This document shows positions 18,361 through 64,000 of a DNA stretch of 64,000 nt, piece after piece. Origin of the DNA: an uncultured bacterium (GTDB lineage Bacteria; Verrucomicrobiota; Lentisphaeria; Victivallales; UBA1829); NCBI GenBank assembly GCA_900548385.1, contig URKJ01000001.1, positions 72,360-136,359 on the forward strand. Direction: 5' to 3'. The position numbers and the translations under genes were made by a program. Every line of letters begins with the position of its first letter. Position 1 is the stretch's first letter. The notes under the pieces were generated by a model, which was not told the origin of the DNA, made no database searches, and saw nothing but the letters and a program-made list of their open reading frames with translations.

Positions 18361-18363
18361 TCC

Positions 18364-43849: not shown

Positions 43850-43858
43850 GTTTTTGCT

Positions 43859-43884
43859 GTAACCTTTTCCGGTTGTATGCGTTT
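43859..43884 (+). promoter_or_regulatory. ECF-sigma-like promoter motif TGTAAC-N16-CGTT upstream of GG-leader gene 1
   Basis: TGTAAC 43859-43864 and CGTT 43881-43884. About 40 nt (CTGTAACCTTT..CCG.T.TA..GCGTTT.CA.GGTG.AA) are shared with the upstream region of the second GG-leader gene (61646-61672, minus). Confidence 0.45.
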
Positions 43885-43947: not shown

Positions 43948-44235
43948 ATGAAAACAATCTGTGAACTGAGTGATTCCGAGCTTGAAAACGTGGTCGGCGG
44001 TCTGCATTACTATGTGGACAAGAGCAATCCGGTACAGGGAAAAAACGGTCGGCTCTGCTACAATATTTATTCAAGTTCGGTGGAGGCTTCCGGAGATTGG
44101 CAGAACCTGTTCAAAGGAAAAGGCGCAAAGGATATGTCGATCAGCATGTCAATGTCTCACAAGGTGATCCCTGTGGATCAATATGATGCGTTCCGTGAAC
44201 GTGCGGCGGGCAAGCACACGTTCCACGAGTGCTGA
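43948..44235 (+). CDS. Small secreted-type protein with double-glycine (bacteriocin-type) leader
   Basis: MKTICELSDSELENVVGG|LHYY... fits the LSxxELxxVxGG leader consensus. GGAG lies 8 nt before ATG 43948. Hairpin terminator follows directly. Confidence 0.6.
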   Translation: MKTICELSDSELENVVGGLHYYVDKSNPVQGKNGRLCYNIYSSSVEASGDWQNLFKGKGAKDMSISMSMSHKVIPVDQYDAFRERAAGKHTFHEC

Positions 44236-44244
44236 TTGCGCGAT

Positions 44245-44273
44245 CCGGAGCCGGAGATCCGGCTCCGGTTTTT
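44245..44273. terminator. Rho-independent terminator (shared by convergent genes)
   Basis: CCGGAGCCGG-AGAT-CCGGCTCCGG followed by TTTTT. Confidence 0.8.
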
Positions 44274-44277
44274 CTGT

Positions 44278-47200
44278 TTATTCCGGAATCCAGAATCCGA
44301 AATTGTGGCGGAACTGGTGATTGAATCTGGTTCCGCTCCAGGTTTTTTGAAGACGGCGCCTTTTGCCGTCGTTGTCGTTGACCGAAATATCAAACGATAC
44401 CGGAGTGCCCGGAGCCTGACGCAGTTCCCGCCACGGGATTTCCAGTACGGCGGCGTAACCGTTTTCCGTGTCCGTGAGTTTCCAGCGGATGGAGGAGAGG
44501 TCGACGTCGCCGCTTTTGTCCAGACGTGCCGGTTTGCCCTCCGCGCCGGCGGTCATATACAGCCGGAAGGTGTCTTTCCGGTATTCTTTCCGTTCCATAT
44601 CCGCGAGCGGGGCGCGGTCGAAATACAGCTCAATGCAGTCGCCGTTCCAGAATTCCGGAGGAGAATATCTGCCGCGTTTCACGTCGCGCACCTGAATGTT
44701 CAGCCGGAACATTTTACTGTCTCCGGAAGCCTGAAAGGATGCGGAAAACGGATCGTCGTTCTCCGCTTTTCCGGTAGTGACCTGCGTAATTTGCGCGGTT
44801 TCTCCGGAGCGCAGGAAACGTTGAGCTTCCACGGGAACGGAAACGGTCCGTGTGACTTTTCCGTCGTAGATCATCAGTTTGACCGTTCCGCCGGGCAGGA
44901 CGGAGCCTTTCGTTTCGACCGGGATCAGCAGAACGGCGGTTTTTCCCGCCGGAAGCCGCAGGGAGGCGGAGCCCGGTTTTGCCGCTTTTGCCGAGGGCGC
45001 GGAGAGCAGCCGTACTTTCAGTTCCTGTGCTTCCAGCGTGCTGCGGAATTCCAGCGCAAGGACCGGCTTTCCCTGTTCCGCGAACCAGCGGGCACGGGTG
45101 ATTTCATATCCGTTTTCCGGTACGATCCTGCTTTCATTCAGCATTTTCCGCAAGGCGTCGAGCCCCTGCCTGCCGCGGATATACATCGGGGTGTTGGTCA
45201 GCGGCATGGCGGGAACCGCTTTTACCGGGTTGCCGAATACGTCGAACAGGTCTACAGTTTGAGGATTGGAGAACGTGATTGAGAATTTCCGGTTCGGCGT
45301 GTAATTCCAGACCGCCGCCATCGGCTGCTTTCCGGGGATTGTGTACAGATATGCCGTGGTTCCGAGCGGCGTATTGAGTTTGCCTGCGGGAACCGCGCGT
45401 TCCATCAGACGGGCGAACGCATTGGCGGCAACGTAAATATCGGTGGGAATCAGGCGCCTCTGAACGCGTTCCCTGATATAGCCGTAACCGGGATTGCGGT
45501 CGCCCCGGTAGCTTGTTTCACAGGGCAGAAGCGTTTCCTGTTTCACTCCTTCCCCGAGGTCGAGCAGAACGCGGCGGATGAAACTTTGCGCGGAAACGAT
45601 TCCATTGGTTACGGCGTCTGCATTGTGCCGCTGCACCGTGTAATAAAGTTCCGTGTTCCAGAGCGGCAGACCTTTGCGGTATTTGGCGATGATCCGCTTG
45701 ATGTCCCGGACTGCCTCGTGTGCGGGATAAGGCGAATGTTCCTCGCGGGAAGAGTAGGGGTGAAAGGAAACGATGTCTGTGTACTGATAGCCGCCGAGTT
45801 TGCCGAACCGCTCCAGAAAATCTCCCATCTGCCCGCCGAGGTCGCCGGTGACGTTCGGGGCGATGACGCGGATCGCCGGGTCAATTTTCCGGCACTCTTC
45901 AAATGCGATCTTTGCAAGTTTGACATAATCCTCCGGCGAGGTCGTCAGGTTGGCTTCATTCAGGATTTCCCAGTACCGGATACGGCCTTTGAAATGGGAA
46001 ACCGTCGCGCGGACATAGTTCCGCCAGTCGTCAAGATTCGGCATGATCGCCGGTTTGCCGTGCATTTTAAAGGTGGAGCTCAGCGTGCCGCGCCGCTGTG
46101 CCCATTCCGGCAGATAACGTTCCAGCAGAACGTTGCCGAGAACACCGAGCAGAACATTGCCGTACCCGAGCCGCTGATTCACAAAACGGTCGGCGAGGCG
46201 GAAATCGAATTTCCCCTGTTCCGGCTCCACGGTCGCCCACTCGAAAATCCGGTATACACCGTTGCCGATCCGGTTGATCCGGTAGCCCTGATTGCGGTTG
46301 ATCCGGTGATAATCCGCTTCATCCGACTCCAGCAGCTGAAAGAACGCTTTTCCGCCGTTGATGTTCGGACAGCCGAAATGGAATCCCTCTTCGACTCCGA
46401 GTACAAAATCGCGGTCCGGGTGAAACGGTTCCGGCGTGTATTTGCCGGAGAACGCATAGAGAAACGGCAGCACCCGTTCCTGTTTGCCGTTGAGCATAAA
46501 AACCGCTTCCGTTGAGTATACGCCGTAAGGACGCATCGGAACGGTGAACGTTTTCGACGCTGTTCTGCCTGCCGGAACGGTCAGTTCCGCCGGACGTTCC
46601 GTCAGAGCTTTTCCGGTATAGTCGTCACGGTCGCGGAAAAGAAACTTCACGGTTCTGTCGTTCTTTCCGTAATTGATTCCGGTGAGGGTGAAGGTCAGCG
46701 GCTGTTCGCCGTCGATATGCAGATGGCGCGGAGCCGTGAGCGTGAATTCCATATCGCTTTTCAGCGAGAACGGCGTTGCCTGTGTGCCGGGTTCCACCTG
46801 AAGCGCGTCGAACCAGACGGTCGCATCGCTGTCTTCGCCCCACAGGAAATCAAGAAGGTACGATTTATGACCGTTCGGCGGCAGAAACGTGTAGGTATAG
46901 CGTTTCCAATCGGTCGAGAGCGTGACGGTTCGGGACGGATTGAACCAGTCCCGTGCGGCTCTGCCGTTCTTTTCCGCCGGGATGATGGAGATCGGCAGAT
47001 AGCGGAGTTTGACCGGCTTGGAACTTTTCGCATAGAAACTGAGCGTGTACGGCTTGCCGGGCGTTACGCTGAAGTCCGGTGAACGCAGAACGGCGGGAGT
47101 CGCGTCCGGATTGTCGAAACGCAGACTCTGTCTGCCGTGGACCCTGGTGTTTTGATCCGGTACGGGCGGCAGATATTTTACTTCTTCCGGCTGCATCGGG

Positions 47201-52342: not shown

Positions 52343-53458
52343 TTGGAGGTTTTTGTTTTGGGAGAAGGATTGACCAAACAGGAGCGGATTTTTCAGACAC
52401 TGGTGCTGGAAATCGAAAAAGGGATCTGGCCTGTGGATTCACTGCTTCCTTCGGGTGCCAGGCTGGCGGAACGTTTTGATGTGGCTCCGCTGACGGTACG
52501 CAGGGTTCTTCTGGAATTGCAGAATCAGCATTATATCCGGACCGTGAACGGGGTCGGGAGTTTCGTCCTGTCGCGTCCGCAGGAGGACGAACCGAAAATT
52601 CTGGTGGTGACTACGCCGACTTTTACACAGGAAAGCTGTTTGCTGTATATCATTTCCGGAATCATGGAAAGCTGTCAGGAACGGAAAGTGAAGGTCGATT
52701 TTCTGCTGGAGAGTTTTCTGCGCGGCGACGACCGGATCGCTTTTGCCCGGAATTTGCGCAGAAAAAATTATCTGGGGGTGATTTTCACCCGCTGTCTTTT
52801 TGTCGGGGATGAACCGGAATTTGCGGCGCTCCGGGAACTGAATATTCCGGTTTTGCTGCCTCATGCGACACCGGAAGACAGGAAAATGACCGGTTTCGCC
52901 ACATTGTTTACAGATGAAGCCGCCGCATGGGAAGATGCTTTAGTTTATTTACGGGAGCTGGGACACCGGCGGATCGCACAGCTGATGCGTCCACTGCATA
53001 CCGGCAGATTCCGGTCGCGGACCTGGGTGCAGCATCAGAATCTGCTGAAAAAACTGGGACTGGATGCTTCTCCGGATCTGTTTTGCATCCTGAACGATTA
53101 CAATTCTCCGGATTTTGTTCCGCTGCTGACCGGATTGCTTCAGAAGCCGGAACGGCCTACGGCGATACTGGGCTTTTCGGACTTCTTTGCGCTTCGTGCC
53201 TGTGATGAATTGGCACGTCTGCGGATCGGGGTTCCGGACGAGCTGTCGGTGATGGGATTTTGCGGTTACCCAGGAGGCGAGTCCAGAGCGTGTCCGCTGT
53301 CCACAATGGATTTCATGTACGGCAGAATCGGGGATCAGGCTGTGCGGACTCTGCTCCATGCTTCGGAATGGTTCGGCGGCGGAAAAAAGGTGCCGCTGCT
53401 GAAAACTCCATACCGGCTGGTCGAACGGAGTACAACGGGTTTATGCCACGGAACGTGA
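52343..53458 (+). CDS. GntR-type HTH fused to LacI/periplasmic-binding-fold sensor (transcriptional regulator)
   Basis: IFQTLVLEIEKGIWPVDSLLPSGARLAERFDVAPLTVRRVLLELQNQHYIRTVNGVGSFV (GntR wHTH), followed by a sugar-binding-like domain (ILGFSDFFALRA). TTG start uncertain. Confidence 0.78.
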   Translation: MEVFVLGEGLTKQERIFQTLVLEIEKGIWPVDSLLPSGARLAERFDVAPLTVRRVLLELQNQHYIRTVNGVGSFVLSRPQEDEPKILVVTTPTFTQESCLLYIISGIMESCQERKVKVDFLLESFLRGDDRIAFARNLRRKNYLGVIFTRCLFVGDEPEFAALRELNIPVLLPHATPEDRKMTGFATLFTDEAAAWEDALVYLRELGHRRIAQLMRPLHTGRFRSRTWVQHQNLLKKLGLDASPDLFCILNDYNSPDFVPLLTGLLQKPERPTAILGFSDFFALRACDELARLRIGVPDELSVMGFCGYPGGESRACPLSTMDFMYGRIGDQAVRTLLHASEWFGGGKKVPLLKTPYRLVERSTTGLCHGT

Positions 53459-53529
53459 CTGCATGAAATGCTGATCGCAGAAACGAATTCGTATAAGAAA
53501 CGAAACATATGCAAAAGGAGATATGAATT

Positions 53530-54390
53530 ATGAAACGAAACTCATTCAAGGGCAGGCGGAGGCGAAAGAATGATCTTCCTCTGAAATTCCAGACTTACTT
53601 TTCCATGATAGAGCTTTTACTAGTTATTTCAATTATTGCAATATTGGCGTCTCTTCTGCTTCCCGTTCTGAACCGCGCCCGCGATTCCGCTCAGCAGTCC
53701 GCCTGCCGTTCCAACCTGAAACAGCTCGGCGCGGCGCTGGCCGGCTATACGGTTGATTCCGACGACTATTTTCATTTTTCCAAAACAGAGAGGAACAGTT
53801 CCTATCTGTACAAGACCTGGACGATGCTGTATGTTCAGAATGCCTATACTTCGGCAAAGCTGTTTCTGTGCGGAAGCCGCATCCCGGACAGTGAAACAAA
53901 GAGAAATTACAGGACGCGTTTAAAGACTTTCACCGCGACGACGGACAAGGGGTGGCCATGGCATTTTCCTGATTACGGTTACAATCATCTGCTGGGGAGC
54001 GATCATGCCGGAGTGCGCTGTTCACAAGGGCATACGGGGGTGCTGGATGCAGGGGTGAGAGTTGGACAGGTCCGGCGTCCATCGGGGATTCTGGCATTCG
54101 GAGAGTCACGCGAGGCGTTGACAGATGCAGCCCTTGCCAATCCTGCCGGTTATTTTATCGTTCATTCGAGATACAGTTTGAATACAAAATGCCATCATGG
54201 CTACACTTCCGGCAATCTGTTTCCCGTTCATGGCGTGATCTGCAATACGGTTTTCGTCGACGGACATACCGCTGCGTACCGGGCGCAGATTCCAGGTATT
54301 GAGGGAGGACGTTCCCTGTATGAGCAGCAGAGACTCGGCAACTGGTATATGGGAAAAACGGAAAACAACAGTTTTTATCCGTTGGAATAA
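53530..54390 (+). CDS. Prepilin-type N-terminal domain protein of the H-X9-DG family
   Basis: [31 protein letters not shown]-terminal [12 protein letters not shown]. Confidence 0.85.
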
Positions 54391-54435
54391 CAATAGATTT
54401 CATTCCGTAAGATAACCATTTGAAAGGAGAATTGT

Positions 54436-56958
54436 ATGAGAAAAAAAAGATGGGGGCACCTCTTTGTCCTATTTGGATTTCTGAGCGTGCTCACGGCGGC
54501 GGAGAAAGAGTTTGATACCGGGGATGCGGTCCGTGGATCGGCGCCTGGAAATCTTTTTCTGGAATCGGAAAAATTGCTGTTTTCGCTTCGTCTTCCGCCA
54601 GGGGAAACACTGTATACCGTGACCGACGTTTACGGAAAAGTTCATGCATCCGGGACTTGGATCGGCGCGGATACCGCCGAGCTGCCGCGTCTGCCGCGCG
54701 GGTTGTATGAGATTGTCCTGAACAATAAAAATGCGGTCTTTACCCGGAACGTCACGTTTTCCGTTCTGCCGCCGCCGGCAAAAGTCGAGGATACGGTGCA
54801 GATATTCGGGTTCGATTCGGCGATCGACTGCTCCGACGGGGCGGACAGCGGGAGCGCTGAACTCCGTATCCGTCCCTCGCGGGAATGTCTGCTTGCCGCC
54901 GCCGTCCGCACGGGAATGCGCACGGTCCGGGTGCGGACGGGATGGCGTCAGTTGGTGAAAGACCGGTATGATGTGCTGCATCTGAAAAGCAAGCGGGCGA
55001 TTGCCGAATTGATGAAATCATACGGCATTGATTCCGCGGGCTGTATTGAAGGACCTAAAAACGATCCCTGGCGGAGAAGCGGAACGAAAATACCGCGCCG
55101 CGCTCAGATGAATGATAAATTCACGTCTCCGGATGATCTGTTTGATGCTTACCGGTACTGTAAAACGCTTGCCGCGACGATCGGCGGTGACGCTCTCCGT
55201 TATTGTGAATACCTCAACGAGCCTGATCTCAAGGGAGATCCGACGTGGGAAGTCGCCGCTCATTTCAAAGCCGCAGCACTGGGATTCCGGGCGGGCGACC
55301 CGAAGATGCGTATTATGACGCCGAGTTTCTGTCAGGAGGATCCCGTGATGCTGGACATCTTTCTCGGCAGCGATACCCGGTATTATTTTGATGTGTTCAA
55401 TATGCACTGTTACTGGGATTTGCTGGCGCACGGACGCTATTTCGGTACATTCCGCGATGCCATGCGCCGTGCCGGATGCGGCGACCGTGCAATCTTCGTA
55501 TCCGAAAACGGCGACGGCATGACTGCGATGAAGAAGAATCCGCGTTTTTCCGTCCGCGCGAAAAAATACCGCGAACTCTCACGGAAACAGGAGTTCGCAC
55601 AGGCGGAATGGCTTGCCAAAACCAGCCTTTCCATGCAGCGGCTTGGAATCTCCGTCAATATGATTTTCTATCTGACAACCCGTTTCGAGGGGGAGGCTCT
55701 GGACTGGGGACACTTCCGGACCGACCATTCGGCGCGTCCGTCGTTGACGGTGCAGGCGAATCTCGCTCATCATCTCATGCCGTGCCGGTATCTGGGCGTG
55801 TATAATCCGGCTCCCGGATTGCGGGGGATGCTTTATGCCCGTCTGGACGGGCTTCAGACTCTGCTGTTTTGGTCGGAGAATGATTTTGACAAGAAGGGAA
55901 AGGTAAGCCACTATGTCATTCCTGCTCCGAAGAAGCTTCGCACGTTTTCCCTGCCGGCACCCGATGGGGACTATCCGTTGTATGATATGTATGGATCAAC
56001 GCGTCCGGCGGTCCGTGTGAGCAATGGTAGAGCGTCCGCGGAGGTGTCTTCCATGCCGACGATCCTGACCGGAGTTTCCGGGTTGTCGCCGCAGGAACCT
56101 GCGCCGCCGCGTCCGCGGTTCACTGCCGATACGGATCCGGCGCTTGATATGGGAATTGTTGCCCGGATCATTCCCGGAGACGGTCTGGAACCGGATTCCG
56201 CCGGACATTTTGCGGAGCAGACAAAAAAGCGTGCGCAGTGCCGGATTGAACTTTATAATTTCGACGACAAGCCGAAATCCGGAACTCTGACCCTCTCCGG
56301 CTGCCGGATCATCAATGCTCCGGGAAAAGTGACTTTGCCGCCGGAATCGGCGGTCATGCTGGCGTTCGAGGTCGAACCGGAACAGAAAGGGGACTTTCAG
56401 TCTGTTCTGGAAGTCGGCGGCAAATTCGGCGGCAAGCGCATATCGCGGGCGTTCATGCCTGTCCGGTATGTGTTTGATCCTGCGGCGTTTGATATGATCC
56501 CATGTCCGGAACTGCTGGTGCCGGAACGCTGGCGTCCGATCTCGTCCAGTCCGATGCGGATCTTTTCGCCGGAACCGGGTGTGATCGCATTCCGGGTTGA
56601 TAAATTTCTCAACAACAATCGCTGGACGGCTCCTTCCACACTGCTGAAACCGGGTGAGTTCAACCTGGCGGATACCATCGGCATTGCGTTTGAGACGAGG
56701 ACGCTGGGAAAGGTCGTGTCGCCGAATCGCAACGTGGCGCTGCTTCGTCAAAAGGTGAAAGAACAGGGGAATGCCCGTACTTCCCTCTATCGAATTCCGC
56801 AAAACCAGGAATGGCACGAGTGCCGGGTTTTCTGGAATGCGGACCGGAAATGGCTTGAAAAGACCACGCAGATTCGGTTCGGTGGCAGTTCCAGCAAAAG
56901 CGAGTGGGTCGAATTCCAATATCGGAATATCCGTTTCCTCAAATTGAAAGGAAAATAA
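54436..56958 (+). CDS. Secreted glycoside-hydrolase-like protein (840 aa; TIM-barrel-like core plus C-terminal beta-sandwich modules)
   Basis: Signal peptide MRKKRWGHLFVLFGFLSVLTAAE. CEYLNEPDL (Asn-Glu motif). FVSENGD candidate nucleophile region. C-terminal EFQYRNIRFLKL. Confidence 0.72.
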   Translation: MRKKRWGHLFVLFGFLSVLTAAEKEFDTGDAVRGSAPGNLFLESEKLLFSLRLPPGETLYTVTDVYGKVHASGTWIGADTAELPRLPRGLYEIVLNNKNAVFTRNVTFSVLPPPAKVEDTVQIFGFDSAIDCSDGADSGSAELRIRPSRECLLAAAVRTGMRTVRVRTGWRQLVKDRYDVLHLKSKRAIAELMKSYGIDSAGCIEGPKNDPWRRSGTKIPRRAQMNDKFTSPDDLFDAYRYCKTLAATIGGDALRYCEYLNEPDLKGDPTWEVAAHFKAAALGFRAGDPKMRIMTPSFCQEDPVMLDIFLGSDTRYYFDVFNMHCYWDLLAHGRYFGTFRDAMRRAGCGDRAIFVSENGDGMTAMKKNPRFSVRAKKYRELSRKQEFAQAEWLAKTSLSMQRLGISVNMIFYLTTRFEGEALDWGHFRTDHSARPSLTVQANLAHHLMPCRYLGVYNPAPGLRGMLYARLDGLQTLLFWSENDFDKKGKVSHYVIPAPKKLRTFSLPAPDGDYPLYDMYGSTRPAVRVSNGRASAEVSSMPTILTGVSGLSPQEPAPPRPRFTADTDPALDMGIVARIIPGDGLEPDSAGHFAEQTKKRAQCRIELYNFDDKPKSGTLTLSGCRIINAPGKVTLPPESAVMLAFEVEPEQKGDFQSVLEVGGKFGGKRISRAFMPVRYVFDPAAFDMIPCPELLVPERWRPISSSPMRIFSPEPGVIAFRVDKFLNNNRWTAPSTLLKPGEFNLADTIGIAFETRTLGKVVSPNRNVALLRQKVKEQGNARTSLYRIPQNQEWHECRVFWNADRKWLEKTTQIRFGGSSSKSEWVEFQYRNIRFLKLKGK

Positions 56959-56961
56959 AGA

Positions 56962-58281
56962 ATGCGGAAAATCGTTCAAATACTTGTCGGCATTGTCGTT
57001 CTTCTGACGGCTGTCGCGGAATCGGCGGAACCTGCGGACTGTTCTTTGCGTGACGGACTGCCGTTTTTTGTGGAAAAGCTCCGTAACGGAAAACCGGTGA
57101 CGGTTGTCTATTTCGGCGGCAGTATAACATATGACCGGCGTGGTTGGCGCGTGCTTGTTTCCGACTGGTTGAACCGTAAACATCCGAATGTGAAATTCCG
57201 TCATGTCAATGCCGCTGTCGGCGGGACTGGATCGGATGTCGGATTTTTCCGGCTGGAAAAAGACGTTCTGGCGCACAGTCCGGATCTGGTCTTTGTGGAG
57301 TTTGCGGTAAATGACCGCAACAAAGCGGCTCTCTATACACAGCGCTGCATGGAGGGGATCGTCCGGAAGATCCGGAGTCGTCTGCCGAATTGTGATATCT
57401 GTTTTGTCTATACTGCCACGGCGCAGGATTTGAAGAATTTTGCCGGCGGAACCTGGATGAGATCCGTTGAAGCGATGGAAAAGGTTGCGGAACATTACCG
57501 TCTGCCGAGTGTGTTCCTGGCTGCCGATGCGCTGCGGCTGTACAAAAAGGGAAAATTGCGGCTTCAAACGGATTCCCGGCTGGAATTGCGTCGGGGCGAT
57601 GGAAAACGGTTAGGTCTGAATCTGATGGAGACCAACGGGGCTGAATTCGGCATTGCCCTGCCGGTGCGGGTTGACAGGGAAGGGTGTATGGTTTTCAGCC
57701 GGGACGGCGTGCATCCTCTTTTTGATACGGGACATCAGCTGTATTTCAACGTTCTCCGTCGTGCGCTGTCAGCGCTTCCGCCGCAATCTTCCGCTCCCCG
57801 GTCTCTTCCGGAACCGCTGGATGAGGACAACCTTGCAGCAATGAAAACAGTGCTTCCCGATCCGCGGAATATTACCGGTGGCATTGCGGAAAAACTGTCG
57901 GAACGTTCCGTTCCCGGACGCATTTATCAGAATGAAATATGGAAACTGCCGGCAGGAAGCGAAATGCTGCTGGAGTTCAACGGCTCCATGCTGCTGTTGA
58001 ATACTCTGCGCGGTCCTGATTGCGGTTGGGTGGAGTTTTCTGTGGATGGCGGCAAGCCTGTGCGCGTTCTCAACTTCACACCGATTTCCTCCGGTTATAC
58101 TCCGTCGAATATCATGCTCCCGGCGGGAACTGCCGGACGTCATCAGCTGAGACTCCGGGTATTGAATGAGAGTGTAAACAAGAAAAAGATTCTTCGTCCC
58201 AACCTCCGATCCAGCATGGACAAGACTCCGGAACGGTTCCGGGAAACAAATTTTTATCTGCGTTTTATTCTAGTCCGCTGA
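56962..58281 (+). CDS. SGNH/GDSL-type hydrolase (esterase) with C-terminal beta-sandwich domain
   Basis: Signal peptide. Block I VVYFGGSITYD, FVEFAVNDRN, block V SRDGVHP. Confidence 0.82.
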   Translation: MRKIVQILVGIVVLLTAVAESAEPADCSLRDGLPFFVEKLRNGKPVTVVYFGGSITYDRRGWRVLVSDWLNRKHPNVKFRHVNAAVGGTGSDVGFFRLEKDVLAHSPDLVFVEFAVNDRNKAALYTQRCMEGIVRKIRSRLPNCDICFVYTATAQDLKNFAGGTWMRSVEAMEKVAEHYRLPSVFLAADALRLYKKGKLRLQTDSRLELRRGDGKRLGLNLMETNGAEFGIALPVRVDREGCMVFSRDGVHPLFDTGHQLYFNVLRRALSALPPQSSAPRSLPEPLDEDNLAAMKTVLPDPRNITGGIAEKLSERSVPGRIYQNEIWKLPAGSEMLLEFNGSMLLLNTLRGPDCGWVEFSVDGGKPVRVLNFTPISSGYTPSNIMLPAGTAGRHQLRLRVLNESVNKKKILRPNLRSSMDKTPERFRETNFYLRFILVR

Positions 58282-58549: not shown

Positions 58550-61204
58550 ATGACTGATATCAGAAATACACCGCCGCCGTTTCCGCAGGGCGAACCGCGA
58601 TTCGTTGAAGCATTGCGCAGAAAACCGGAGTTCCGTCCGTACTGGAACCGGAACCTGGAACCTCGGAAAGACGAGGCGGATTTCCGCAAAGGGCTTGATT
58701 TCCGCGCGGAATTTCCCGATCCGGAAGAACTGCTCGTCACCGCAACGGAGGAAATGCTCCGTTTTCTTCGGGAAGCCGATATTTTCGTTCCCGGTGCAAC
58801 GTCGATCATTACACGCAAAGCCGGGAATCTCGAAGGGGAAAGTTTCCGCATCGTCGTCGAACGGGATCAAATCACTATTGAAGCCGGTGATACCGAAGGA
58901 ATCCGCCGCGGAGTTTACTACTTGGAGGATCTTCTCGCTGGAAGCCGCGCCCCTTTTCTGAAACTTGGAGAAACCCGTCGTGATCCGTGGCTGAAAAACC
59001 GCATTTCCCGCTGTTTCTTCGGTCCGATCAAACGCCCGCCGTTCAACCGCGACGAACTGATGGATGAAATCGACTATTATCCGGAAGAGTACCTGAACCG
59101 TCTTGCCAGGGAAGGGGTCAACGGCTTGTGGCTGACGATTGTTTTCCGGGAAATCTGCACGACATCTTTTTATCCCCGCAACCCGGATGCGGAAAGGCGT
59201 CTCGAAAAACTTCGCCGCTCCGTCAGGAAATGCCGACGCTACGGAATTAAAATATGGGTTTTCTGCATTGAGCCTGCCTGCTGGGGGGCAGCCAATCCCT
59301 GTCCGGAAGGGCATCCGGAACTCAAAGGGCCTCCTTCCTATGTCGGGCCGAGTTTCTGCCCGGATTCGGACGCGGCAAAACAATATTTATACGAATGCAC
59401 AAACAGTCTTTTTGCCGCGGTTCCGGATCTCGGCGGGCTCATCACAATCTCTCACGGGGAGCGTCCGACCTCCTGTTTGAGCACGCTTTCGGTTTATGGT
59501 CACAAGAAAAATCCATGCGAAGGCAAGTGTGATCTTTCCATCGGGGAAATCCTGAGCAGGGTTCTGCTTCCCATGGCGGACGGTATGCATGCGGCAAATC
59601 CGAACGCCGAACTCATCAGCTGGCTTTACATGCCTTACCGCGATCAGCTCTCCGGCTGGATTTATGAAATGCCCGAACGGCTTACAAAGGACGTAATTCT
59701 CGCTTTCAATTTTGAATCGGGATGCAACAAGGAACAGCTTGGTAAAGTGCGGAGCGGCGGTGATTACTGGCTCTCATGCGTCGGACCGAGCGATCGTTTC
59801 GGACGCATGGCGGCGGCAGCGCGCGGCAGGTGCGAAATGGCGGCAAAACTGCAGGTCTGCTGTTCCCACGAAGTCGCCACGATCCCGTTCCTTCCCGTTC
59901 CCGGACTCATTTACCGGAAATACAGAGAAATGAAAAAACTCGGCGTCAGGCACGTCATTCAATGCTGGTATTTCGGAAACTATCCCGGACTCATGAACAA
60001 GGCGGCGGGACTTCTCGCGTTTGAAGATTTCACGCGCCCGGAAAAGGAATTTCTTGAAGAACTCGCATTCAGCGAATGGGGTGCACATGCGGAGGACATG
60101 GCTGAAATATGGAACGACTTCGCGGAGGCTTACTCCAATTATCCGCTTGATATCCAGTTCCAGTATTACGGACCGATGCACGACGGTCCGGTCTGGCCCC
60201 TGCATTTGAAACAGGTTATGAAACAGCTTCCCCGGACATGGAAGCCGGACTATGCTCCCGCAGGCGATGCCGTCGGTGAATGCATGTTCAACCATGAACT
60301 TCCGGAGACCATGCTTCTTACGCGGAAAATTGCGGACGGCTGGCACAAAGGCATGGAAAAACTCAATACATTCGTCCGTGAATATCTGGATCGTTCCGAA
60401 CGGATGCTTGACGCTTCGCTGTATGAGGCGCTTGACATTCAGTTCCGTTCCGGAGCCAATATTCTCGAATTTTTCACGCTCAGAAACCGTCTGATGGATT
60501 CGCCCCCGGATGCGGAAAAACTTCTGGACCGGCTGGAAGCCATCGTGAAAGAGGAGATCGAAAACAGCCTCCGTCTGGCGGAGCTCTGCGAGGCGGATTC
60601 CCGTCTCGGCTATCATTCCGAGGCGGAAGTCTATAAATATTTTCCGGAAAAACTGCGCTGGCGCGTTGCGGTTCTGCAGGATATTCTTGCGGAAGATTTT
60701 GCCGGATGCCGGATCAAACTCCGGGAAGGAGCTCCGGCAGGGGACTTCCTGCGGAAGCAGGAGAAAATTCATACGGCAGGTTCCGTTTACCATGCCGGCA
60801 ATATCTCATGGAGTATGACGGCGGATATTGAAAATGTCGTATTTGATATTGAATGCCGCCGTAATGACAGCCGCGGAGAAAATGGAAAGATTTCCTTGTT
60901 TCTCATGGATCGCAAAGGGGAACGTACTCCCTGGCGTATTTGCATTGATAATAATGACACCGTGTTTGGTTCCTGGGACGCGGTGCATGTCGAATCGAAA
61001 GAGGAGAACGGCTGCAGAAAAATCGCAGCGGTGTTCCCGCGTGCAATGATCGGCAACAATGAATTCTATTTCGGAATTGAGCATTGCTGGAACGATGCGC
61101 AGGGAGTTCATTCGGAACATTATCCGGCGGGAAATTATCCGGATGAACAGCGTCTGAATCTCGGAACGTTCTCCCCGGACCGGATGGTTCTGGTCCGGAT
61201 TTAA
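58550..61204 (+). CDS. Large glycoside-hydrolase-like protein without signal peptide (884 aa), with C-terminal CBM9-like module
   Basis: N-terminal alpha/beta module ending DTEGIRRGVYYLEDLL (like the N-domains of GH20/GH67-type enzymes). TIM-barrel-like GVNGLWLTIVFRE...IKIWVFCIEP. C-terminus FYFGIEHCWND...RLNLGTFSPDRMVLV. Start ATG 58550 or 58520. Confidence 0.65.
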   Translation: MTDIRNTPPPFPQGEPRFVEALRRKPEFRPYWNRNLEPRKDEADFRKGLDFRAEFPDPEELLVTATEEMLRFLREADIFVPGATSIITRKAGNLEGESFRIVVERDQITIEAGDTEGIRRGVYYLEDLLAGSRAPFLKLGETRRDPWLKNRISRCFFGPIKRPPFNRDELMDEIDYYPEEYLNRLAREGVNGLWLTIVFREICTTSFYPRNPDAERRLEKLRRSVRKCRRYGIKIWVFCIEPACWGAANPCPEGHPELKGPPSYVGPSFCPDSDAAKQYLYECTNSLFAAVPDLGGLITISHGERPTSCLSTLSVYGHKKNPCEGKCDLSIGEILSRVLLPMADGMHAANPNAELISWLYMPYRDQLSGWIYEMPERLTKDVILAFNFESGCNKEQLGKVRSGGDYWLSCVGPSDRFGRMAAAARGRCEMAAKLQVCCSHEVATIPFLPVPGLIYRKYREMKKLGVRHVIQCWYFGNYPGLMNKAAGLLAFEDFTRPEKEFLEELAFSEWGAHAEDMAEIWNDFAEAYSNYPLDIQFQYYGPMHDGPVWPLHLKQVMKQLPRTWKPDYAPAGDAVGECMFNHELPETMLLTRKIADGWHKGMEKLNTFVREYLDRSERMLDASLYEALDIQFRSGANILEFFTLRNRLMDSPPDAEKLLDRLEAIVKEEIENSLRLAELCEADSRLGYHSEAEVYKYFPEKLRWRVAVLQDILAEDFAGCRIKLREGAPAGDFLRKQEKIHTAGSVYHAGNISWSMTADIENVVFDIECRRNDSRGENGKISLFLMDRKGERTPWRICIDNNDTVFGSWDAVHVESKEENGCRKIAAVFPRAMIGNNEFYFGIEHCWNDAQGVHSEHYPAGNYPDEQRLNLGTFSPDRMVLVRI

Positions 61205-61211
61205 AAATCGT

Positions 61212-61251
61212 GATGCTGTCCGCGGCTTGTCTGATGAGCCCGGACAGCATC
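61212..61251. terminator. Hairpin terminator between convergent genes
   Basis: GATGCTGTCCG (61212-61222) pairs with CGGACAGCATC (61241-61251). On the minus strand the hairpin is followed by ACGATTTTT. Confidence 0.6.
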
Positions 61252-61277
61252 ATGACTGAACCTGTTTTCTGTTTCCG

Positions 61278-61610
61278 TTATCCCAGCAGGGCTTTGGCCT
61301 TGTCAGGTGAAAAATTGACCCATTGACCGTTGTTGTCCAGAATATCAATGGAAGTCACTTCCGCTTTGGAGAACTGCCTGCGGAGTGTTGTTTCCGAAGA
61401 TGTTCCCATGAAAGAAACATCGTGTCCCATCACGGCCCGGACCAGCGGATCACTGGAATGAATCCTGACGCGGAGCCCCTGTGCTCCGCTTTTCCCCGTA
61501 AAAACCTGCAGATTATTCTGCTGGATGAAGTTCTGGTTGAACACTCCGCCGACAACCGTGTCGAGGTCTTCCTTGCCGAGTTCCTGAATCTTGTCATTGA
61601 ATTCTTTCAT
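61278..61610 (-). CDS. Small secreted-type protein with double-glycine (bacteriocin-type) leader, apparent paralog of 43948..44235
   Basis: MKEFNDKIQELGKEDLDTVVGG|VFNQ... fits the LxxxDLxxVxGG consensus. AAAGGAA RBS. Core shares GK(N/S)G...I(Y/H)SS...D(M/V)S...Q(Y/F) landmarks with the other GG protein. Confidence 0.6.
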   Translation of the reverse strand: MKEFNDKIQELGKEDLDTVVGGVFNQNFIQQNNLQVFTGKSGAQGLRVRIHSSDPLVRAVMGHDVSFMGTSSETTLRRQFSKAEVTSIDILDNNGQWVNFSPDKAKALLG

Positions 61611-61645
61611 TTTGCATTCCTTTCAGTTAATTGTTACACCTTGTA

Positions 61646-61671
61646 AACGCAGTATACGGTGAAAGGTTACA
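61646..61671 (-). promoter_or_regulatory. ECF-sigma-like promoter motif TGTAAC-N16-CGTT upstream of GG-leader gene 2
   Basis: Minus strand reads TGTAAC (61671-61666), 16 nt, CGTT (61649-61646). The flanks are conserved with 43858-43900. Confidence 0.45.
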
Positions 61672-61895
61672 GGGGAAAAGTTTTTTTTAACGGGAAACGA
61701 CAGAGGATGATCAAGACAACCAACTTGCCGCTCAAGGAGCTTTGAACCCGGTTTTCCGGTCATCGCTGCCCAAGTTATCCCTGAATTCTTATTTCCTGTT
61801 TTTTCCCGTGAAAGGATCAAACAATTCCGGCTGTGCTGGCTTGGTCCGCTGAATTTTTCCTTGTGACGCCCGCATAATATATATTGTATATATCT

Positions 61896-64000
61896 CTAAG
61901 GAGTGCTCCGCGTCAGATGGTAAGCCATGACGCCGCCGGGAAAAAGGTCGGTCGCGATGCGGAAACGGAGTGTTCCGTTCCGGAAAGAGGTTTTGACGTC
62001 GCCGAGCTCCGCTCCGTTGCAGGAGAGTGCGCGCACCCGGAACGGATGTCCGCCGGTTTTCAGCGCGATTTCCGCACTGCCGCGCCGGACAAGACGGGGG
62101 AGGCTGCCCGCTTTTCGCATGATCCTCCGGGACGCGTCGTCGAACCGGGTTCCGCTGTTTTCTGTGTTGGTCAGCTGCAGAAGCAGAATCGAGGCACTGT
62201 CCGCAAGAGGTTTGTTGTCCAGCGAGATCGCGGCAACCGTCTGAAAACAGCTTGCATTTTGAACATGCAGGATTTTTCCGTTCAATGCTCCTCCGGGAAG
62301 TGTCAGCGATTCCGTTTTCGGGGAGACCGCGGCGAATGTGCCGTTTTCGGCGGAAAGGCGCAGTTCTCCGGTGTCGCTGACGATCGTTCCTGTCCGGCGG
62401 ATGGACGGCGAGGGTTCCGGATAATCCGGAACTGCTGTCCCGCGGACGTAACTGCCGATCTGGGAAACGAGTCCGGCCTCCTGAGATGCGGCGGAAAATT
62501 CCGCATTGCTTCCCGCCTCGTCCGGGGAAACGCCGAATGCGTATTGGTTCCGTGCCGGGGCGATGTCTCCGCGCAGGAACAGCGCAGCCGCGAGACGGTC
62601 GGAGAGCAGCGCCAACGGATCGTTGACGGCATCGAACGTGCGGATCCGGAACGGTGCTGTCATATAGGCGCGTTCGTGACTCCAGGCGAACCGGAACAGC
62701 CCGTCCCAGTTCTGAAGAGCGGCATACGAGTACATCAGCGGAACGCTTTCCGCGCGGAAGATGTTCGGATAGGTGAAGTTGTATTCGGTCACAATGAACG
62801 GTTTTCCCCAAAGACGCGTCGCCATCATCCGGCGGGGGACGATTGCATTAAGCCGGATGGAAGAGCCTTGCGAGTGACGGATCGGATATTGCCATGCTTT
62901 CTCCGGGAACTTCGGATGATCGAAATATTCGTGATTGTCCACGAGGTCCAAATGATTGCGCACCAGAGTCATGTTGCGCTTGTTGCGGTAATTGAGATCG
63001 GTCAGAAGCGGCTTGAGTTTCAGGTCTTCTTTCAGAAAACGCATTTGTTCGCGGATTGTCCGGAGTTGGAGATCGTTCAGAAAACGGCGGTAGTGGCAGT
63101 CCGGTGATTCGCCCGTCTTGGCGGGATTCTCCGTGCTCCAGACGTGATAACGGCGGCGGTAGAGCGGATTGTCAAACGTCAGTTCGTTTTCGTTTACGAG
63201 ATTGAGACAGAAGAGCGCCGGGTCTTGTCCCCATGCGATCCCTGTATACGGGTTGACATGCGTCATCCAGTTGCGGGCGAACTGTTTCCAGTTTTCCATT
63301 GCGCGGGGGCTGACGGCGATCAGTTTTTTCATGGTGTCGTTTTCCGGCGACAGTTCCGGGATGTTGTCGCCTTTGCGGAAACGCCGGTTCGTGTAAAGGT
63401 CGGTCGTCATGTAAATGCCGCTCTGCTTCAAGCGGTGGAACAGATAATCGAGTTTGTCCAGATTCTGTTTGTTCAGCTCTGTGGAGACCGGGGAAGCGGG
63501 ATCGGAAAGCAGAGTGTCATGATGGTGAAAGCGAACCGCATTGTAACCGCAGCGGACAAGTTCCGCGACAAGTTCGTCCGCCTCGTTCCGTTCGAGATAG
63601 TTCGAGGAGAAGCAGAGATTGACTCCGTGCAGACGCAGCCGTTTTTCCGGCGCCCGCTCAAAAGTCAGCGTACCGTCTTCCGCCGCCCGGACTGCACCGT
63701 ATTTTCCCGCCGGAGCGTCCTGCAGAAAGCTGAAATCAAGCGCGCTTCCCGGCAGAGTGGATCGGGGGCATTCGAGCCGGACCCAGTCTTTGCCCGCGCG
63801 GATTACATCGGGGCGACTCCGTTTGACCGGAAGCTGAACGGAGCGGTCCGCCAGGGAGACGGCAGCGATCATCCATGCCGCACTGTCGGAAGCCATGCGG
63901 AAAGAGAGCGTTTCGGGATCGCCGGATTCAAGCGGAAACGCCGAAATATACAATCCGACTTCTGCCGCCGAGTTTGCGGCGGACCAGAGCACACGCGCGT
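61896..64000 (-). CDS. Glycoside-hydrolase-like protein (clan GH-A/GH5-like TIM barrel), 5' end outside window
   Basis: RLHGVNLCFSSNYL...GYNAVRFHHHD and KPFIVTEYNF (candidate nucleophile Glu). The reading frame stays open to the window edge, so the N-terminus is missing. Confidence 0.72.
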   Translation of the reverse strand, partial: ARVLWSAANSAAEVGLYISAFPLESGDPETLSFRMASDSAAWMIAAVSLADRSVQLPVKRSRPDVIRAGKDWVRLECPRSTLPGSALDFSFLQDAPAGKYGAVRAAEDGTLTFERAPEKRLRLHGVNLCFSSNYLERNEADELVAELVRCGYNAVRFHHHDTLLSDPASPVSTELNKQNLDKLDYLFHRLKQSGIYMTTDLYTNRRFRKGDNIPELSPENDTMKKLIAVSPRAMENWKQFARNWMTHVNPYTGIAWGQDPALFCLNLVNENELTFDNPLYRRRYHVWSTENPAKTGESPDCHYRRFLNDLQLRTIREQMRFLKEDLKLKPLLTDLNYRNKRNMTLVRNHLDLVDNHEYFDHPKFPEKAWQYPIRHSQGSSIRLNAIVPRRMMATRLWGKPFIVTEYNFTYPNIFRAESVPLMYSYAALQNWDGLFRFAWSHERAYMTAPFRIRTFDAVNDPLALLSDRLAAALFLRGDIAPARNQYAFGVSPDEAGSNAEFSAASQEAGLVSQIGSYVRGTAVPDYPEPSPSIRRTGTIVSDTGELRLSAENGTFAAVSPKTESLTLPGGALNGKILHVQNASCFQTVAAISLDNKPLADSASILLLQLTNTENSGTRFDDASRRIMRKAGSLPRLVRRGSAEIALKTGGHPFRVRALSCNGAELGDVKTSFRNGTLRFRIATDLFPGGVMAYHLTRSTP

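What the first reader, a model, noticed from the sequence alone, without database searches (positions are those of the whole stretch)
61278..61671. Double-glycine-leader protein 2: paralog of the first, same conserved upstream element, bracketing the CAZyme region
Seen:
- The 110-aa ORF on the minus strand starts MKEFNDKIQELGKEDLDTVVGG|VFNQ.
- Its core shares colinear landmarks with protein 1: (V/F)(Q/T)GK(N/S)G, I(Y/H)SS, D(M/V)S(I/F) and Q(Y/F)xxA.
- Its upstream region aligns with that of gene 1 over about 40 nt. Gene 1 reads CTGTAACCTTTTCCGGTTGTATGCGTTTTCATGGTGAAAAC. Gene 2 reads CTGTAACCTTTCACCGTATACTGCGTTTACAAGGTGTAACA.
- The AAC-to-CGT spacing is identical (16 nt) in both.
- The two genes point inward from either end of the 44-61.6 kb carbohydrate-utilisation block.

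Inference: the two genes form a co-regulated family, either a shared ECF-sigma regulon or a shared operator. The conservation extends past the -10 box, so a repressor site or a 5'-leader RNA element is also possible.
Basis: partly seen in the sequence, partly recalled or inferred. Interest (0 to 1): 0.65.

Follow-up and report, generated by a model that had tools for sequence, protein, structure and literature searches.

The report
ECF-promoter-driven double-glycine secreted small protein
This is a real gene for a small protein with an export tag, switched on from a promoter read by a specialised sigma factor encoded elsewhere in this gut Victivallales genome; it is an interesting but mechanistically familiar variant of a bacteriocin-type secretion system, and it shares only the tag and the promoter, not its body, with the "first" gene.

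Summary
The ORF (61278-61610, minus strand, 110 aa), its canonical double-glycine leader, and the shared upstream element TGTAACC-N14-GCGTTT are all real. That element occurs exactly twice in 64 kb, once before each of the only two GG-leader ORFs.

**Not supported:** paralogy of the two mature cores. BLASTP, shuffling tests and hhalign are all at chance level. The genes share a promoter and leader module only.

**Supported:** the ECF-sigma regulon reading.
- In related Lentisphaeria, orthologues of both genes lie in tandem between an ECF sigma gene and an NHLP-type export cassette (HlyD-like adaptor, C39-peptidase ABC transporter, second ABC transporter).
- Each transcription unit there starts with the same motif.
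- The window's own species encodes the orthologous sigma (61% identity) on another contig. The same motif follows it directly, ahead of a conserved 71-aa partner protein.
- The motif sits at a fixed spacing after sigma orthologues in about 20 PVC-group loci.
- It is conserved in sister-species GG2 loci while the spacer and flanks diverge.

**Other results:** there is no structured 5' leader RNA. The mature 88-aa protein is basic, hydrophilic and confidently predicted as a globular alpha/beta fold with no PDB match. Its function is unknown. I could not locate the exporter in the window genome.

The parts
61278..61610 (-). Gene 2 (GG2): 110-aa precursor. The leader is codons 1-22 (61545-61610). 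The mature 88-aa protein is 61281-61544. The stop codon is 61278-61280.
   Evidence: ORF list and translation. There are 13 close and about 16 distant GG-leader homologues. dN/dS is 0.14-0.16 against sister species.
61645..61671 (-). ECF-type promoter TGTAACC-N14-GCGTTT. The -35 box TGTAACC is 61665-61671. The -10 box GCGTTT is 61645-61650.
   Evidence: Exact match; 0 in 100 shuffles. Fixed-spacing consensus from 21 instances. The boxes are invariant while the spacer varies in sister species.
61681..61688 (-). A-tract just upstream of the -35 box, possibly an UP-like element. Conserved sequence begins here.
   Evidence: Read. A-tracts at the same place in other instances. Alignability with sister species starts here.
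61611..61644 (-). Short unstructured 5'UTR with the ribosome-binding site GAAAGGAA (about 61617-61624).
   Evidence: Sequence. MFE 0 kcal/mol, z = +1.26. No Rfam match.
61201..61257 (-). Intrinsic terminator of gene 2: a long G+C-rich hairpin followed by UUUUU.
   Evidence: Fold -34.1 kcal/mol, z = -5.0, 0 of 200 shuffles fold as well. Mostly conserved in sister species.
43948..44235 (+). Gene 1 (GG1): 95-aa precursor with an 18-aa GG leader (43948-44001). The mature 77-aa protein has two conserved Cys and a C-terminal HTFHEC.
43858..43884 (+). The same ECF-type promoter, upstream of gene 1.
   Evidence: Conserved in the orthologous loci L059 and L113.
44245..44278 (+). Intrinsic terminator of gene 1.
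   Evidence: 10-bp stem with 9 GC pairs plus a T-run.

Best explanation
**What it is.** Gene 2 is a stand-alone transcription unit: ECF-type promoter, 34-nt unstructured 5'UTR, 110-codon ORF, intrinsic terminator.

**Proposed mechanism, step by step.**
1. It is transcribed by RNA polymerase carrying a dedicated ECF sigma factor. That sigma (168 aa, MEI3040437.1 / P0166) is encoded elsewhere in the same Victivallales genome. Basis: inferred from comparative genomics.
2. The 22-residue double-glycine leader targets the precursor to a C39-peptidase ABC exporter of the NHLP-bacteriocin type, working with a HlyD-like adaptor and a second ABC subunit. The exporter cuts after Gly22. Basis: adjacency shown in relatives; the exporter of the window genome was not located.
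3. The product released outside the cell is a basic (pI 9.5), hydrophilic, 9.7-kDa protein with a compact alpha/beta fold. Basis: sequence properties and a predicted structure.

**Relation to gene 1.** Gene 1 is a second substrate of the same regulon and exporter. It shares the promoter and leader module but has an unrelated mature part. In a relative, this module is 99% identical at the DNA level between the two genes and the identity ends at the GG codons. Leader and promoter therefore move or homogenise as a cassette between different cargo genes.

**Extracellular role.** It is not established. My best guess (about 40%) is a bacteriocin-like agent of interbacterial competition.
For: **The gene is real and encodes a GG-leader protein.**
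- ORF and translation.
- Purifying selection, dN/dS 0.14-0.16.
- About 16 GG-leader family representatives of 100-116 aa, all with LDxIVGG followed by (A/V)FNQ.

**The GG2 family sits next to the exporter in relatives.**
- L001-L006 and L016: ECF sigma, then a GG1 and/or GG2 orthologue, then a 432-aa protein, a C39 ABC transporter and a second ABC transporter.
- The L004 GG2 orthologue matches the window gene at 37.6% identity, E = 3e-18.
- L064 and L066 (GG2 at 42% and 36% identity) show the same arrangement.
- The L016 exporter proteins pass the curated NCBIfam cut-offs for the NHLP cassette: TIGR03794 185.3 against 156.2, TIGR03796 855.4 against 853.3, and TIGR03797 712.9 against 709.4.
- That cassette was described by Haft et al. 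2010, including in Victivallis vadensis.

**The motif is a promoter tied to this sigma.**
- It occurs only twice in the window, both times before GG-leader genes.
- No sigma-70-like promoter is found upstream of either gene.
- The same motif follows the sigma gene in the window's own species, in L063.
- It follows sigma orthologues of 44-99% identity in about 20 loci, always at a fixed spacing.
- In a metagenome-wide scan for the 18-base pattern, 20 of 54 hits lie before GG1, GG2 or the sigma's small partner gene. At least 7 more lie before unrelated ECF sigma or anti-sigma genes.
- In sister species the -35 and -10 boxes are invariant, the spacer has 5 changes in 10 nt, and DNA upstream of the A-tract is unalignable.

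**Leader and promoter behave as a module.**
- L004 carries an 83-nt direct repeat, 99% identical, covering the ribosome-binding site plus the whole leader coding sequence and ending at the GG codons.

**The mature protein.**
- AlphaFold2 with a 16-sequence alignment gives pLDDT 80-94 for the mature part and below 50 for the leader.
- Physical properties.
Against: - No C39 exporter or ECF sigma lies in the 64-kb window or within 10 kb of the sigma gene in this species. Export in this genome is therefore inferred, not shown.
- Curated leader models are not passed. TIGR01847 scores 15.3 against a cut-off of 15.7, and only for gene 1. NF038167 scores 21.1 against 32.
- No immunity-like gene is co-transcribed with gene 2.
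- The mature protein is hydrophilic and globular (GRAVY -0.32, no hydrophobic segment). It is unlike membrane-active class II bacteriocins or microcins, which weakens the bacteriocin guess.
- One 72%-identical homologue (L058) has no recognisable motif upstream.
- The same -35/-10 pattern also serves unrelated ECF sigmas in other phyla. Assigning it to this particular sigma rests on adjacency, not on an experiment.
Confidence: 0.7

Rival explanations
1. Genes 1 and 2 are true paralogues, meaning duplicates of one ancestral gene, whose cores have diverged beyond easy recognition.
For: - The two genes are of similar size and share the leader type and the promoter.
- Their orthologues are tandem neighbours in L004 and L017.
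Against: - BLASTP gives E = 3.7.
- Smith-Waterman and global alignment scores fall inside the shuffle distributions; 27-31% of shuffles score at least as well.
- Profile-profile probability is 0.3-1.2%.
- The GG1 family has two invariant Cys and an HTFHEC tail, which are absent from GG2. GG2 has the (A/V)FNQ start and a G-W-V-F-S C-terminal motif, which are absent from GG1.
- The L004 repeat stops exactly at the cleavage site. That fits module sharing rather than whole-gene duplication.
Confidence: 0.2
2. The shared element is mainly an operator for a DNA-binding repressor, or the start of a regulatory 5' leader RNA, rather than a sigma-specific promoter.
For: - Similarity between the two window copies continues a few bases past the -10 box (GGTG.AA).
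- The GG2 5'UTR is well conserved among sister species.
Against: - Across 21 instances, only the TGTAAC(C/T)TT and (G/C)CGT(T/A)..CA blocks are conserved, at a fixed spacing. This is the ECF pattern.
- The element lacks dyad symmetry (sequences).
- The 5'UTRs do not fold better than shuffles.
- There is no Rfam family match.
- The element is physically tied to an ECF sigma gene in about 20 loci.
Confidence: 0.07
3. The GG-like N-terminus is coincidental. The product is a small cytoplasmic protein and is not exported.
For: - No exporter lies nearby in this genome.
- Curated leader HMM thresholds are not reached.
Against: - The leader pattern is conserved in every family member, while the residues after GG define a new conserved N-terminus.
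- Family members sit immediately upstream of C39 exporters in at least 5 independent lineages.
- The AlphaFold2 model leaves the leader disordered and outside the fold.
Confidence: 0.03

Closest known systems
NHLP/Nif11-type bacteriocin export system (TIGR03794 / TIGR03796 / TIGR03797; Haft, Basu and Mitchell 2010, PMC2887384)
   Same: - In relatives, the GG1 and GG2 genes lie directly upstream of this three-gene cassette, with scores above the curated cut-offs.
- Cleavage is at a Gly-Gly motif.
- Precursor genes can lie far from the transporter.
- The cassette is already known from Victivallis vadensis.
   Different: - The leaders here are short (18-22 aa) and are not related to nitrile hydratase or Nif11. 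The Nif11 model scores 12.2 bits against a cut-off of 32.3, and there is no NHLP hit.
- The cargo is a 77-88 aa protein predicted to fold, not a short modified core peptide.
- No modification enzymes lie nearby.
- The system is coupled to an ECF sigma factor.
Class II microcins and class II bacteriocins (for example colicin V with CvaAB). Comparison from my own knowledge.
   Same: - A double-glycine leader.
- A mature product under 10 kDa.
- Export by a C39 ABC transporter plus a HlyD-family adaptor.
- Several unrelated cargo genes sharing one leader type.
   Different: - No adjacent immunity gene.
- The mature protein is hydrophilic and globular rather than glycine-rich or hydrophobic.
- Control is by an ECF sigma rather than by quorum-sensing, iron or SOS circuits.
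- Antimicrobial activity is untested.
PCAT1 and its 90-aa substrate CtA of Clostridium thermocellum. Comparison from my own knowledge.
   Same: A precursor of about 90-110 aa with a GG leader of about 22-24 aa. It is handled by a peptidase-containing ABC transporter, and the function of the cargo is unknown.
   Different: The host there is Gram-positive, with no adaptor or second ABC subunit and no known ECF control.
ECF sigma regulons of secretion systems: HrpL in Pseudomonas syringae, and BtrS with its secreted anti-sigma BtrA in Bordetella (PMC7498569)
   Same: - A dedicated ECF sigma drives genes for secreted substrates, including genes far from the secretion locus. The Bordetella gene bteA lies 2.5 Mb away yet is BtrS-dependent.
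- Sigma orthologues in Kiritimatiellae sit next to T3SS-like genes.
   Different: - Here the linked exporter is a C39 ABC (type I-like) system, not a T3SS.
- The promoter consensus is TGTAACC-N14-GCGT(T/A).

Membership tests
Double-glycine-leader substrates of C39-peptidase ABC exporters | An N-terminal leader of 15-25 aa ending in GG, with hydrophobic residues at -4, -7, -12 and -15 and acidic residues around -8. | tested here: met
   The leader is MKEFNDKIQELGKEDLDTVVGG, with V-4, L-7, L-12, I-15 and D-8/E-9. The pattern is conserved in all 16 aligned family members.
Double-glycine-leader substrates of C39-peptidase ABC exporters | A match to curated leader models above their cut-offs. | tested here: not met
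   For GG2, NF038167 scores 21.1 bits against a cut-off of 32. For GG1, TIGR01847 scores 15.3 against 15.7. These models are short and the scores are near threshold.
Double-glycine-leader substrates of C39-peptidase ABC exporters | A cognate C39 ABC exporter encoded with the gene or elsewhere in the genome. | tested here: inconclusive
   The exporter is adjacent in the relatives L001-L006, L016, L017, L019, L064 and L066. It is absent from the window and from the sigma locus of this species. The rest of the 4.56-Mb genome could not be searched.
Double-glycine-leader substrates of C39-peptidase ABC exporters | Cleavage after GG and export, demonstrated experimentally. | not testable with these tools
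   This needs biochemistry or a secretome analysis.
NHLP / Nif11 precursor peptides (TIGR03793, TIGR03798) | A long leader homologous to nitrile hydratase alpha subunit or to Nif11. | tested here: not met
   There is no TIGR03793 hit. TIGR03798 scores E = 0.17 and 12.2 bits against a cut-off of 32.3, for GG1 only.
NHLP-type export cassette (in relatives) | The three genes TIGR03794, TIGR03796 and TIGR03797 lie together and score above their curated cut-offs. | tested here: met
   L016 scores 185.3 against 156.2, 855.4 against 853.3, and 712.9 against 709.4.
Class II microcin / class II bacteriocin | An adjacent dedicated immunity gene, usually a small membrane protein. | tested here: not met
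   Gene 2 is monocistronic between its promoter and terminator. Its neighbours are genes of 884-1025 aa.
Class II microcin / class II bacteriocin | A small mature product (under 10 kDa) that is membrane-active or receptor-targeting, with antimicrobial activity. | tested here: inconclusive
   The size criterion is met at 9.7 kDa. However, the protein is hydrophilic (GRAVY -0.32, maximum 19-residue hydropathy 0.37) and predicted to be globular. Activity cannot be tested here.
ECF-sigma-dependent promoter | A -35 box containing AAC and a -10 box containing CGT, about 16 nt apart. | tested here: met
   TGTAAC-C-N14-G-CGT is present in both window copies and in 21 of 21 collected instances at a fixed spacing.
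ECF-sigma-dependent promoter | A cognate ECF sigma in the same genome, physically linked to the motif. | tested here: met
   P0166 has Sigma70_r2 and r4_2 domains. It occurs on the 4,556,201-bp contig and in GCA_964311375.1, which also hold the window's genes. The motif starts about 20 nt after its stop codon.
ECF-sigma-dependent promoter | Conservation in orthologous loci beyond the neutral expectation. | tested here: met
   The boxes are invariant at dS of about 0.4, while the spacer and upstream DNA diverge. The exception is L058, which has no motif.
ECF-sigma-dependent promoter | A mapped transcription start and demonstrated dependence on the sigma. | not testable with these tools
   This needs 5'-RACE, RNA-seq or a reporter assay.

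The most novel reading that the evidence does not exclude
The conserved small protein encoded after the motif next to the sigma gene may be a secreted anti-sigma factor whose export route tracks the linked secretion system. In the window's species it is 71 aa: MKPDKPVPDIDNLMEKAFQLPPPPIPDF...ELSMDDLDMLAAAG|KNAF....
- In Kiritimatiellae loci with T3SS-like genes, the shared LMxxAFxLPxPxxP motif is at the C-terminus, behind a long N-terminal extension.
- In all six GG-substrate or PCAT-type loci where the protein was found, the motif is N-terminal. It is followed by an internal leader-like [DE][DE]LDxLAAAG that closely resembles the GG2 leader (ELGKEDLDTVVGG).
- If the C39 exporter cleaves or exports this protein, exporter activity would free the sigma and switch on the substrate genes, including the two orphan genes in this window.

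That would be FlgM/BtrA-style secretion-coupled control, transplanted onto a type I/PCAT exporter.
Probability: 0.25. Interest if true: 0.75.

Novelty: new variant of a known kind. Interest (0 to 1): 0.45.

Why it matters
- It links three well-known parts in an arrangement I did not find described: a double-glycine leader, an NHLP-type C39 ABC exporter and an ECF sigma promoter. My searches turned up no description of an ECF sigma dedicated to PCAT substrates.
- It occurs in Victivallales, a poorly studied gut lineage.
- It yields a simple, testable promoter consensus for a PVC-group ECF sigma clade. That clade appears to be attached to different secretion systems: T3SS-like, pilus/T2SS-like and PCAT.
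- It defines a rare family of about 100-aa exported proteins. Only about 16 GG-leader representatives were found among 1.84 billion proteins, and the predicted fold has no PDB match.
- It shows how leader and promoter cassettes are shared among unrelated cargo genes. This is a caution against calling such genes paralogues from leader similarity.

Tried and rejected
- **Upstream 698-aa ORF as the exporter.** I checked whether the ORF at 61896-63992 is the C39 exporter. Its sequence is not ABC-like, it gave no tblastn match to the L004 exporter proteins, and its full-length form has no Pfam hit on record.
- **Sigma or exporter inside the window.** A tblastn of the L004 sigma, adaptor, PCAT, second ABC and partner proteins against the window found none.
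- **Locating the window genome's sigma from 'longest contig'.** Using the homologue list failed, because that column describes only the cluster representative. It was solved with the listing of cluster members.
- **Locating the window genome's exporter.** This was not possible.
- **Structure search for a functional clue.** The second was good (pLDDT 78; mature part 80-94). Neither gave a significant PDB match; the best E-values were 0.29 and 0.47.
- **Giant Ig-repeat proteins at the top of the representative search** (P0138 at E = 8e-41, P0140). I judged these to be summed weak matches of a Big_2-like 'SSDPLVATVSG' repeat to residues of about 40-85. They are not homologues of the family, and the motif is not conserved in other GG2 members.
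- **Weak Pfam hits.** PrpR_N and Lactococcin are below their cut-offs and were ignored.
- **PF28158.** It is attached to some homologues in precomputed data, but it is not in the local Pfam copy, so its name and scope are unknown.
- **A looser motif.** The pattern GTAAC[CT]-N13-15-[GCT]CGT[TA] is expected about once by chance in the window. Only the strict pattern plus its position carries weight.
Full report
**1. The observation**

The minus-strand ORF 61278-61610 encodes 110 aa beginning MKEFNDKIQELGKEDLDTVVGG|VFNQ. Hydrophobic residues at -4, -7, -12 and -15 and acidic residues at -8/-9 give the classic double-glycine leader pattern.

'Gene 1' is 43948-44235 on the plus strand. It is 95 aa and starts MKTICELSDSELENVVGG|LHYY. 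A regex scan of all six frames found no other small ORF with such a leader in the 64 kb.

TGTAACC-N14-GCGTTT matches exactly twice (43858-43884 plus strand; 61645-61671 minus strand) and never in 100 shuffles. With up to 3 mismatches the pattern is not enriched: 21 matches against 13.7 expected. AAC and CGT are 16 nt apart in both copies.

Each gene is a monocistronic unit.
- No sigma-70-like promoter lies upstream of either gene.
- Gene 1 ends in a 10-bp G+C-rich hairpin plus a T-run.
- Gene 2 ends in a long hairpin plus U5, at -34.1 kcal/mol and z = -5.0.

The genes are convergent around a block that includes GH10/CBM-like, LacI, IclR and GntR family and GDSL-lipase genes.

**2. The cores are not demonstrably paralogous**

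- BLASTP of the two proteins finds nothing (E = 3.7).
- With the leaders removed, the local alignment score is 24 against 22.4 +/- 4.1 for shuffles, and 31% of shuffles score at least as well. The global score is likewise inside the shuffle distribution.
- hhalign of a 5-sequence GG1 profile against 11- and 16-sequence GG2 profiles gives probabilities of 0.3% and 1.2%.
- The families have different invariant features. GG1 has HYYVDKS, two Cys and a C-terminal HTFHEC. GG2 has an (A/V)FNQ start, TGKSGAQGL and a G-W-V-F-S...LL C-terminus.

**3. What the two genes do share, and where it comes from**

The window belongs to a gut Victivallales MAG. The window's exact proteins occur on GCA_037064665.1 (a 4,556,201-bp contig) and in GCA_964311375.1.

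A 59%-identical GG1 homologue (P0017) lies in a conserved locus, L001-L006:
- an ECF sigma (173 aa),
- GG1,
- a 109-aa protein,
- a 432-aa protein,
- a C39-peptidase ABC transporter (728 aa),
- a second ABC transporter (861 aa).

The 109-aa protein is a GG2 orthologue: tblastn to the window gives 37.6% identity and E = 3e-18. So in that relative the two 'bracketing' genes are adjacent, between a sigma gene and an exporter.

The exporter proteins of the equivalent locus L016 pass NCBIfam's curated cut-offs for the NHLP bacteriocin cassette, TIGR03794/03796/03797. Haft et al. 2010 described this cassette, including in Victivallis vadensis.

More distant GG2 members sit in the same place. P0139 (42% identity, L064) and P0147 (36% identity, L066) lie directly upstream of an adaptor, a C39 ABC transporter and a second ABC transporter. 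In L064 a periplasmic-binding-protein gene and the ECF sigma gene follow.

In L004 an 83-nt direct repeat, 99% identical, covers the ribosome-binding site plus the entire leader coding sequence of GG1 and GG2. It ends at the GG codons. Leader and promoter thus behave as a shared module in front of unrelated cargo.

**4. The motif is the promoter of that sigma**

- In L004, L016, L017, L018, L019 and L064 the motif precedes the GG transcription units. It also precedes a further small gene at the far end of the exporter cluster.
- A search of species-representative genomes with the sigma protein gave 42 loci.
- In about 20 of them, from Lentisphaeria and Kiritimatiellae with 44-99% sigma identity, TGTAAC(C/T) followed at a fixed distance by (G/C)CGT(T/A) lies right after the sigma stop codon.
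- The consensus of 21 instances is TGTAACcTTtt-N10-gCGT(t/a)ttCa.
- The window's own species has the orthologous sigma. P0166 (168 aa, named 'RNA polymerase sigma factor [Victivallales bacterium]', MEI3040437.1) occurs on the 4,556,201-bp contig. It also occurs in GCA_964311375.1, on a different contig from gene 2.
- About 20 nt after its stop codon comes GCTGTAACCTTTCCGTTTCCGGTGCGTTTTCA, and then a 71-aa ORF.
- No exporter lies within 10 kb of it.

A scan of the metagenome collection for the 18 specified bases common to the three sites of this species gave 54 hits:
- 9 before GG2 orthologues,
- 1 before a GG1 orthologue,
- 10 before the 69-71-aa partner gene,
- at least 7 before unrelated ECF sigma or zinc-anti-sigma genes of other phyla,
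- 3 before an Hcp-like gene,
- the rest without pattern.

In sister species GG2 is 85-88% identical, dS is about 0.40-0.47 and dN/dS is 0.14-0.16. There the -35 and -10 boxes are invariant, the 10-nt spacer has 5 changes, and DNA upstream of the A-tract cannot be aligned. One 72% homologue on an AT-rich contig (L058) lacks the motif.

**5. Alternatives for the sequence past the -10 box**

Across instances, conservation extends through ..TTCA, about where an ECF-dependent transcript would start. A purine-rich GnAGAAAC follows in the Victivallales copies. The 5'UTRs are not structured: gene 2 has an MFE of 0 kcal/mol and gene 1 has z = -0.66. No Rfam family matches. An operator or an RNA element is not needed to explain the data.

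**6. The protein**

The exhaustive profile search found only 29 representatives with E of 0.001 or better among 1.84 billion proteins. About 16 of these are GG-leader proteins of 100-116 aa. The high-scoring giant proteins are Ig-repeat proteins matched by many weak repeats, and I discount them.

With the 16-sequence alignment, AlphaFold2 gives pLDDT 77.7 overall. The leader is below 50 and the mature part is 80-94, with the order helix, two strands, helix, strand, helix, two strands, helix. Foldseek against the PDB finds nothing significant (best E = 0.47).

The mature protein is 9.7 kDa with pI 9.5 and GRAVY -0.32. It has no hydrophobic segment and no Cys. Mature GG1 is 8.7 kDa with pI 8.6 and two Cys. 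Neither looks like a membrane-active class II bacteriocin, and no immunity-like gene is co-transcribed.

**7. Mechanism (shown versus inferred)**

- Shown: the gene structure, purifying selection, the leader pattern, promoter conservation, and the physical linkage of the motif to the sigma gene. The linkage of the family to an NHLP-type exporter is shown in relatives.
- Inferred: sigma-dependent transcription, cleavage after Gly22, and export by a C39 ABC system in this genome.
- Unknown: the extracellular role.

I lean towards interbacterial antagonism for three reasons.
- The genes are associated with a bacteriocin export cassette.
- Several unrelated cargos sit behind one leader.
- Cargo content varies between species: L016 has GG2 only, L017 has GG1 and GG2, and L019 has two GG2 copies.

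The cargo also diverges faster than the sigma (38% against 61% identity). My confidence in this role is only about 40%.

**8. The CAZyme 'bracket'**

The convergent pairing of GG2 with the 894-aa gene is kept in sister species, and the GG1 context is kept in L059. In more distant relatives the genes are together at the exporter. The two units are separately terminated. I therefore read the bracket as a product of genome rearrangement, not a functional unit.

In this species the layout is sigma, motif, partner. In relatives it is sigma, motif, GG genes and exporter, motif, partner. This is what a deletion or relocation between the two promoter copies would leave. That is inference only.

**9. 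Novelty**

All the parts are known kinds. The combination is a new variant as far as my literature searches show. It consists of a PVC-clade ECF sigma with a fixed promoter, short-leader folded cargo on an NHLP-type exporter, and orphan cargo genes elsewhere in the genome. The closest regulatory analogues are HrpL and BtrS/BtrA, which control T3SS substrates, including distant genes.

Noticed in passing
L063 10585-10800 (window's species); L016 16812-17021; L017 14841-15050; L019 18744-18983; L039 10638-; L042 3533-: A conserved 69-118 aa protein with an N-terminal LMxxAFxLPxPxxP motif followed by an internal, GG-leader-like [DE][DE]LDxLAAAG. It is always preceded by the same ECF motif and matches no Pfam or NCBIfam family. 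In the T3SS-linked Kiritimatiellae loci the small ORF right after the sigma carries the same motif at its C-terminus and lacks LAAAG. It is a candidate secreted anti-sigma factor.
   Followed up: partly
L020-L044 (Kiritimatiellae and Lentisphaeria MAG contigs): Orthologues of the same ECF sigma (44-57% identity) are attached to different secretion machineries. Most loci have secretin and T3SS-like export-apparatus genes. L030, L033 and L034 have a GspF-like protein plus a prepilin-like protein. L037 has an adaptor and a C39 ABC transporter directly, with no GG gene in between.
   Followed up: partly
L004 5984-6066 and 6397-6479: An 83-nt direct repeat, 99% identical, covers the ribosome-binding site and the whole leader coding sequence of two otherwise unrelated genes. 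It ends exactly at the GG codons. This suggests recent gene conversion or cassette exchange of the leader module.
   Followed up: yes
L015 about 18235-18515, compared with L013 and window about 52343-58281: In one strain (SRR22402325) the gene table goes from the IclR-family gene straight to the 884-aa gene. The GntR-family, 286-aa, 840-aa and GDSL-lipase genes present in the window are missing, so the carbohydrate block between the two GG genes varies between strains.
   Followed up: no
L078 3707, L082 10225, L110 4231-4258: The same 18-base ECF-like pattern lies 47 nt upstream of a 159-aa protein resembling Hcp, the T6SS tube protein (my recognition; no family search was run), in three unrelated metagenome contigs.
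   Followed up: no
window 61380-61470 (GG2 residues about 47-77): The segment IHSSDPLVRAVMGHDVSFMGTSS resembles the core of the Big_2-like repeats (..TSSDPLVATVSGSTVTIVGSG..) of giant surface proteins. This inflated the E-values of P0138 and P0140 in the profile search. The segment is not conserved in distant GG2 members, so the resemblance is probably convergent.
   Followed up: partly
homologues P0002, P0003, P0005, P0010, P0012: Precomputed annotation attaches Pfam PF28158 to these GG2 homologues. That accession is absent from the Pfam copy available here, so the family may already have a (DUF-type?) entry whose name I could not read.
   Followed up: partly
window 3766-11256 (minus strand): A very long ORF (2496 aa) lies near the start of the window. 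It was not examined.
   Followed up: no
L016 15538-16686; L064 9332-10480: A 382-aa periplasmic-binding-protein-like gene (Peripla_BP_6) is conserved immediately after the second ABC transporter of the exporter cluster in two distant lineages. This is unusual for an NHLP-type cassette, and its role is unknown.
   Followed up: no
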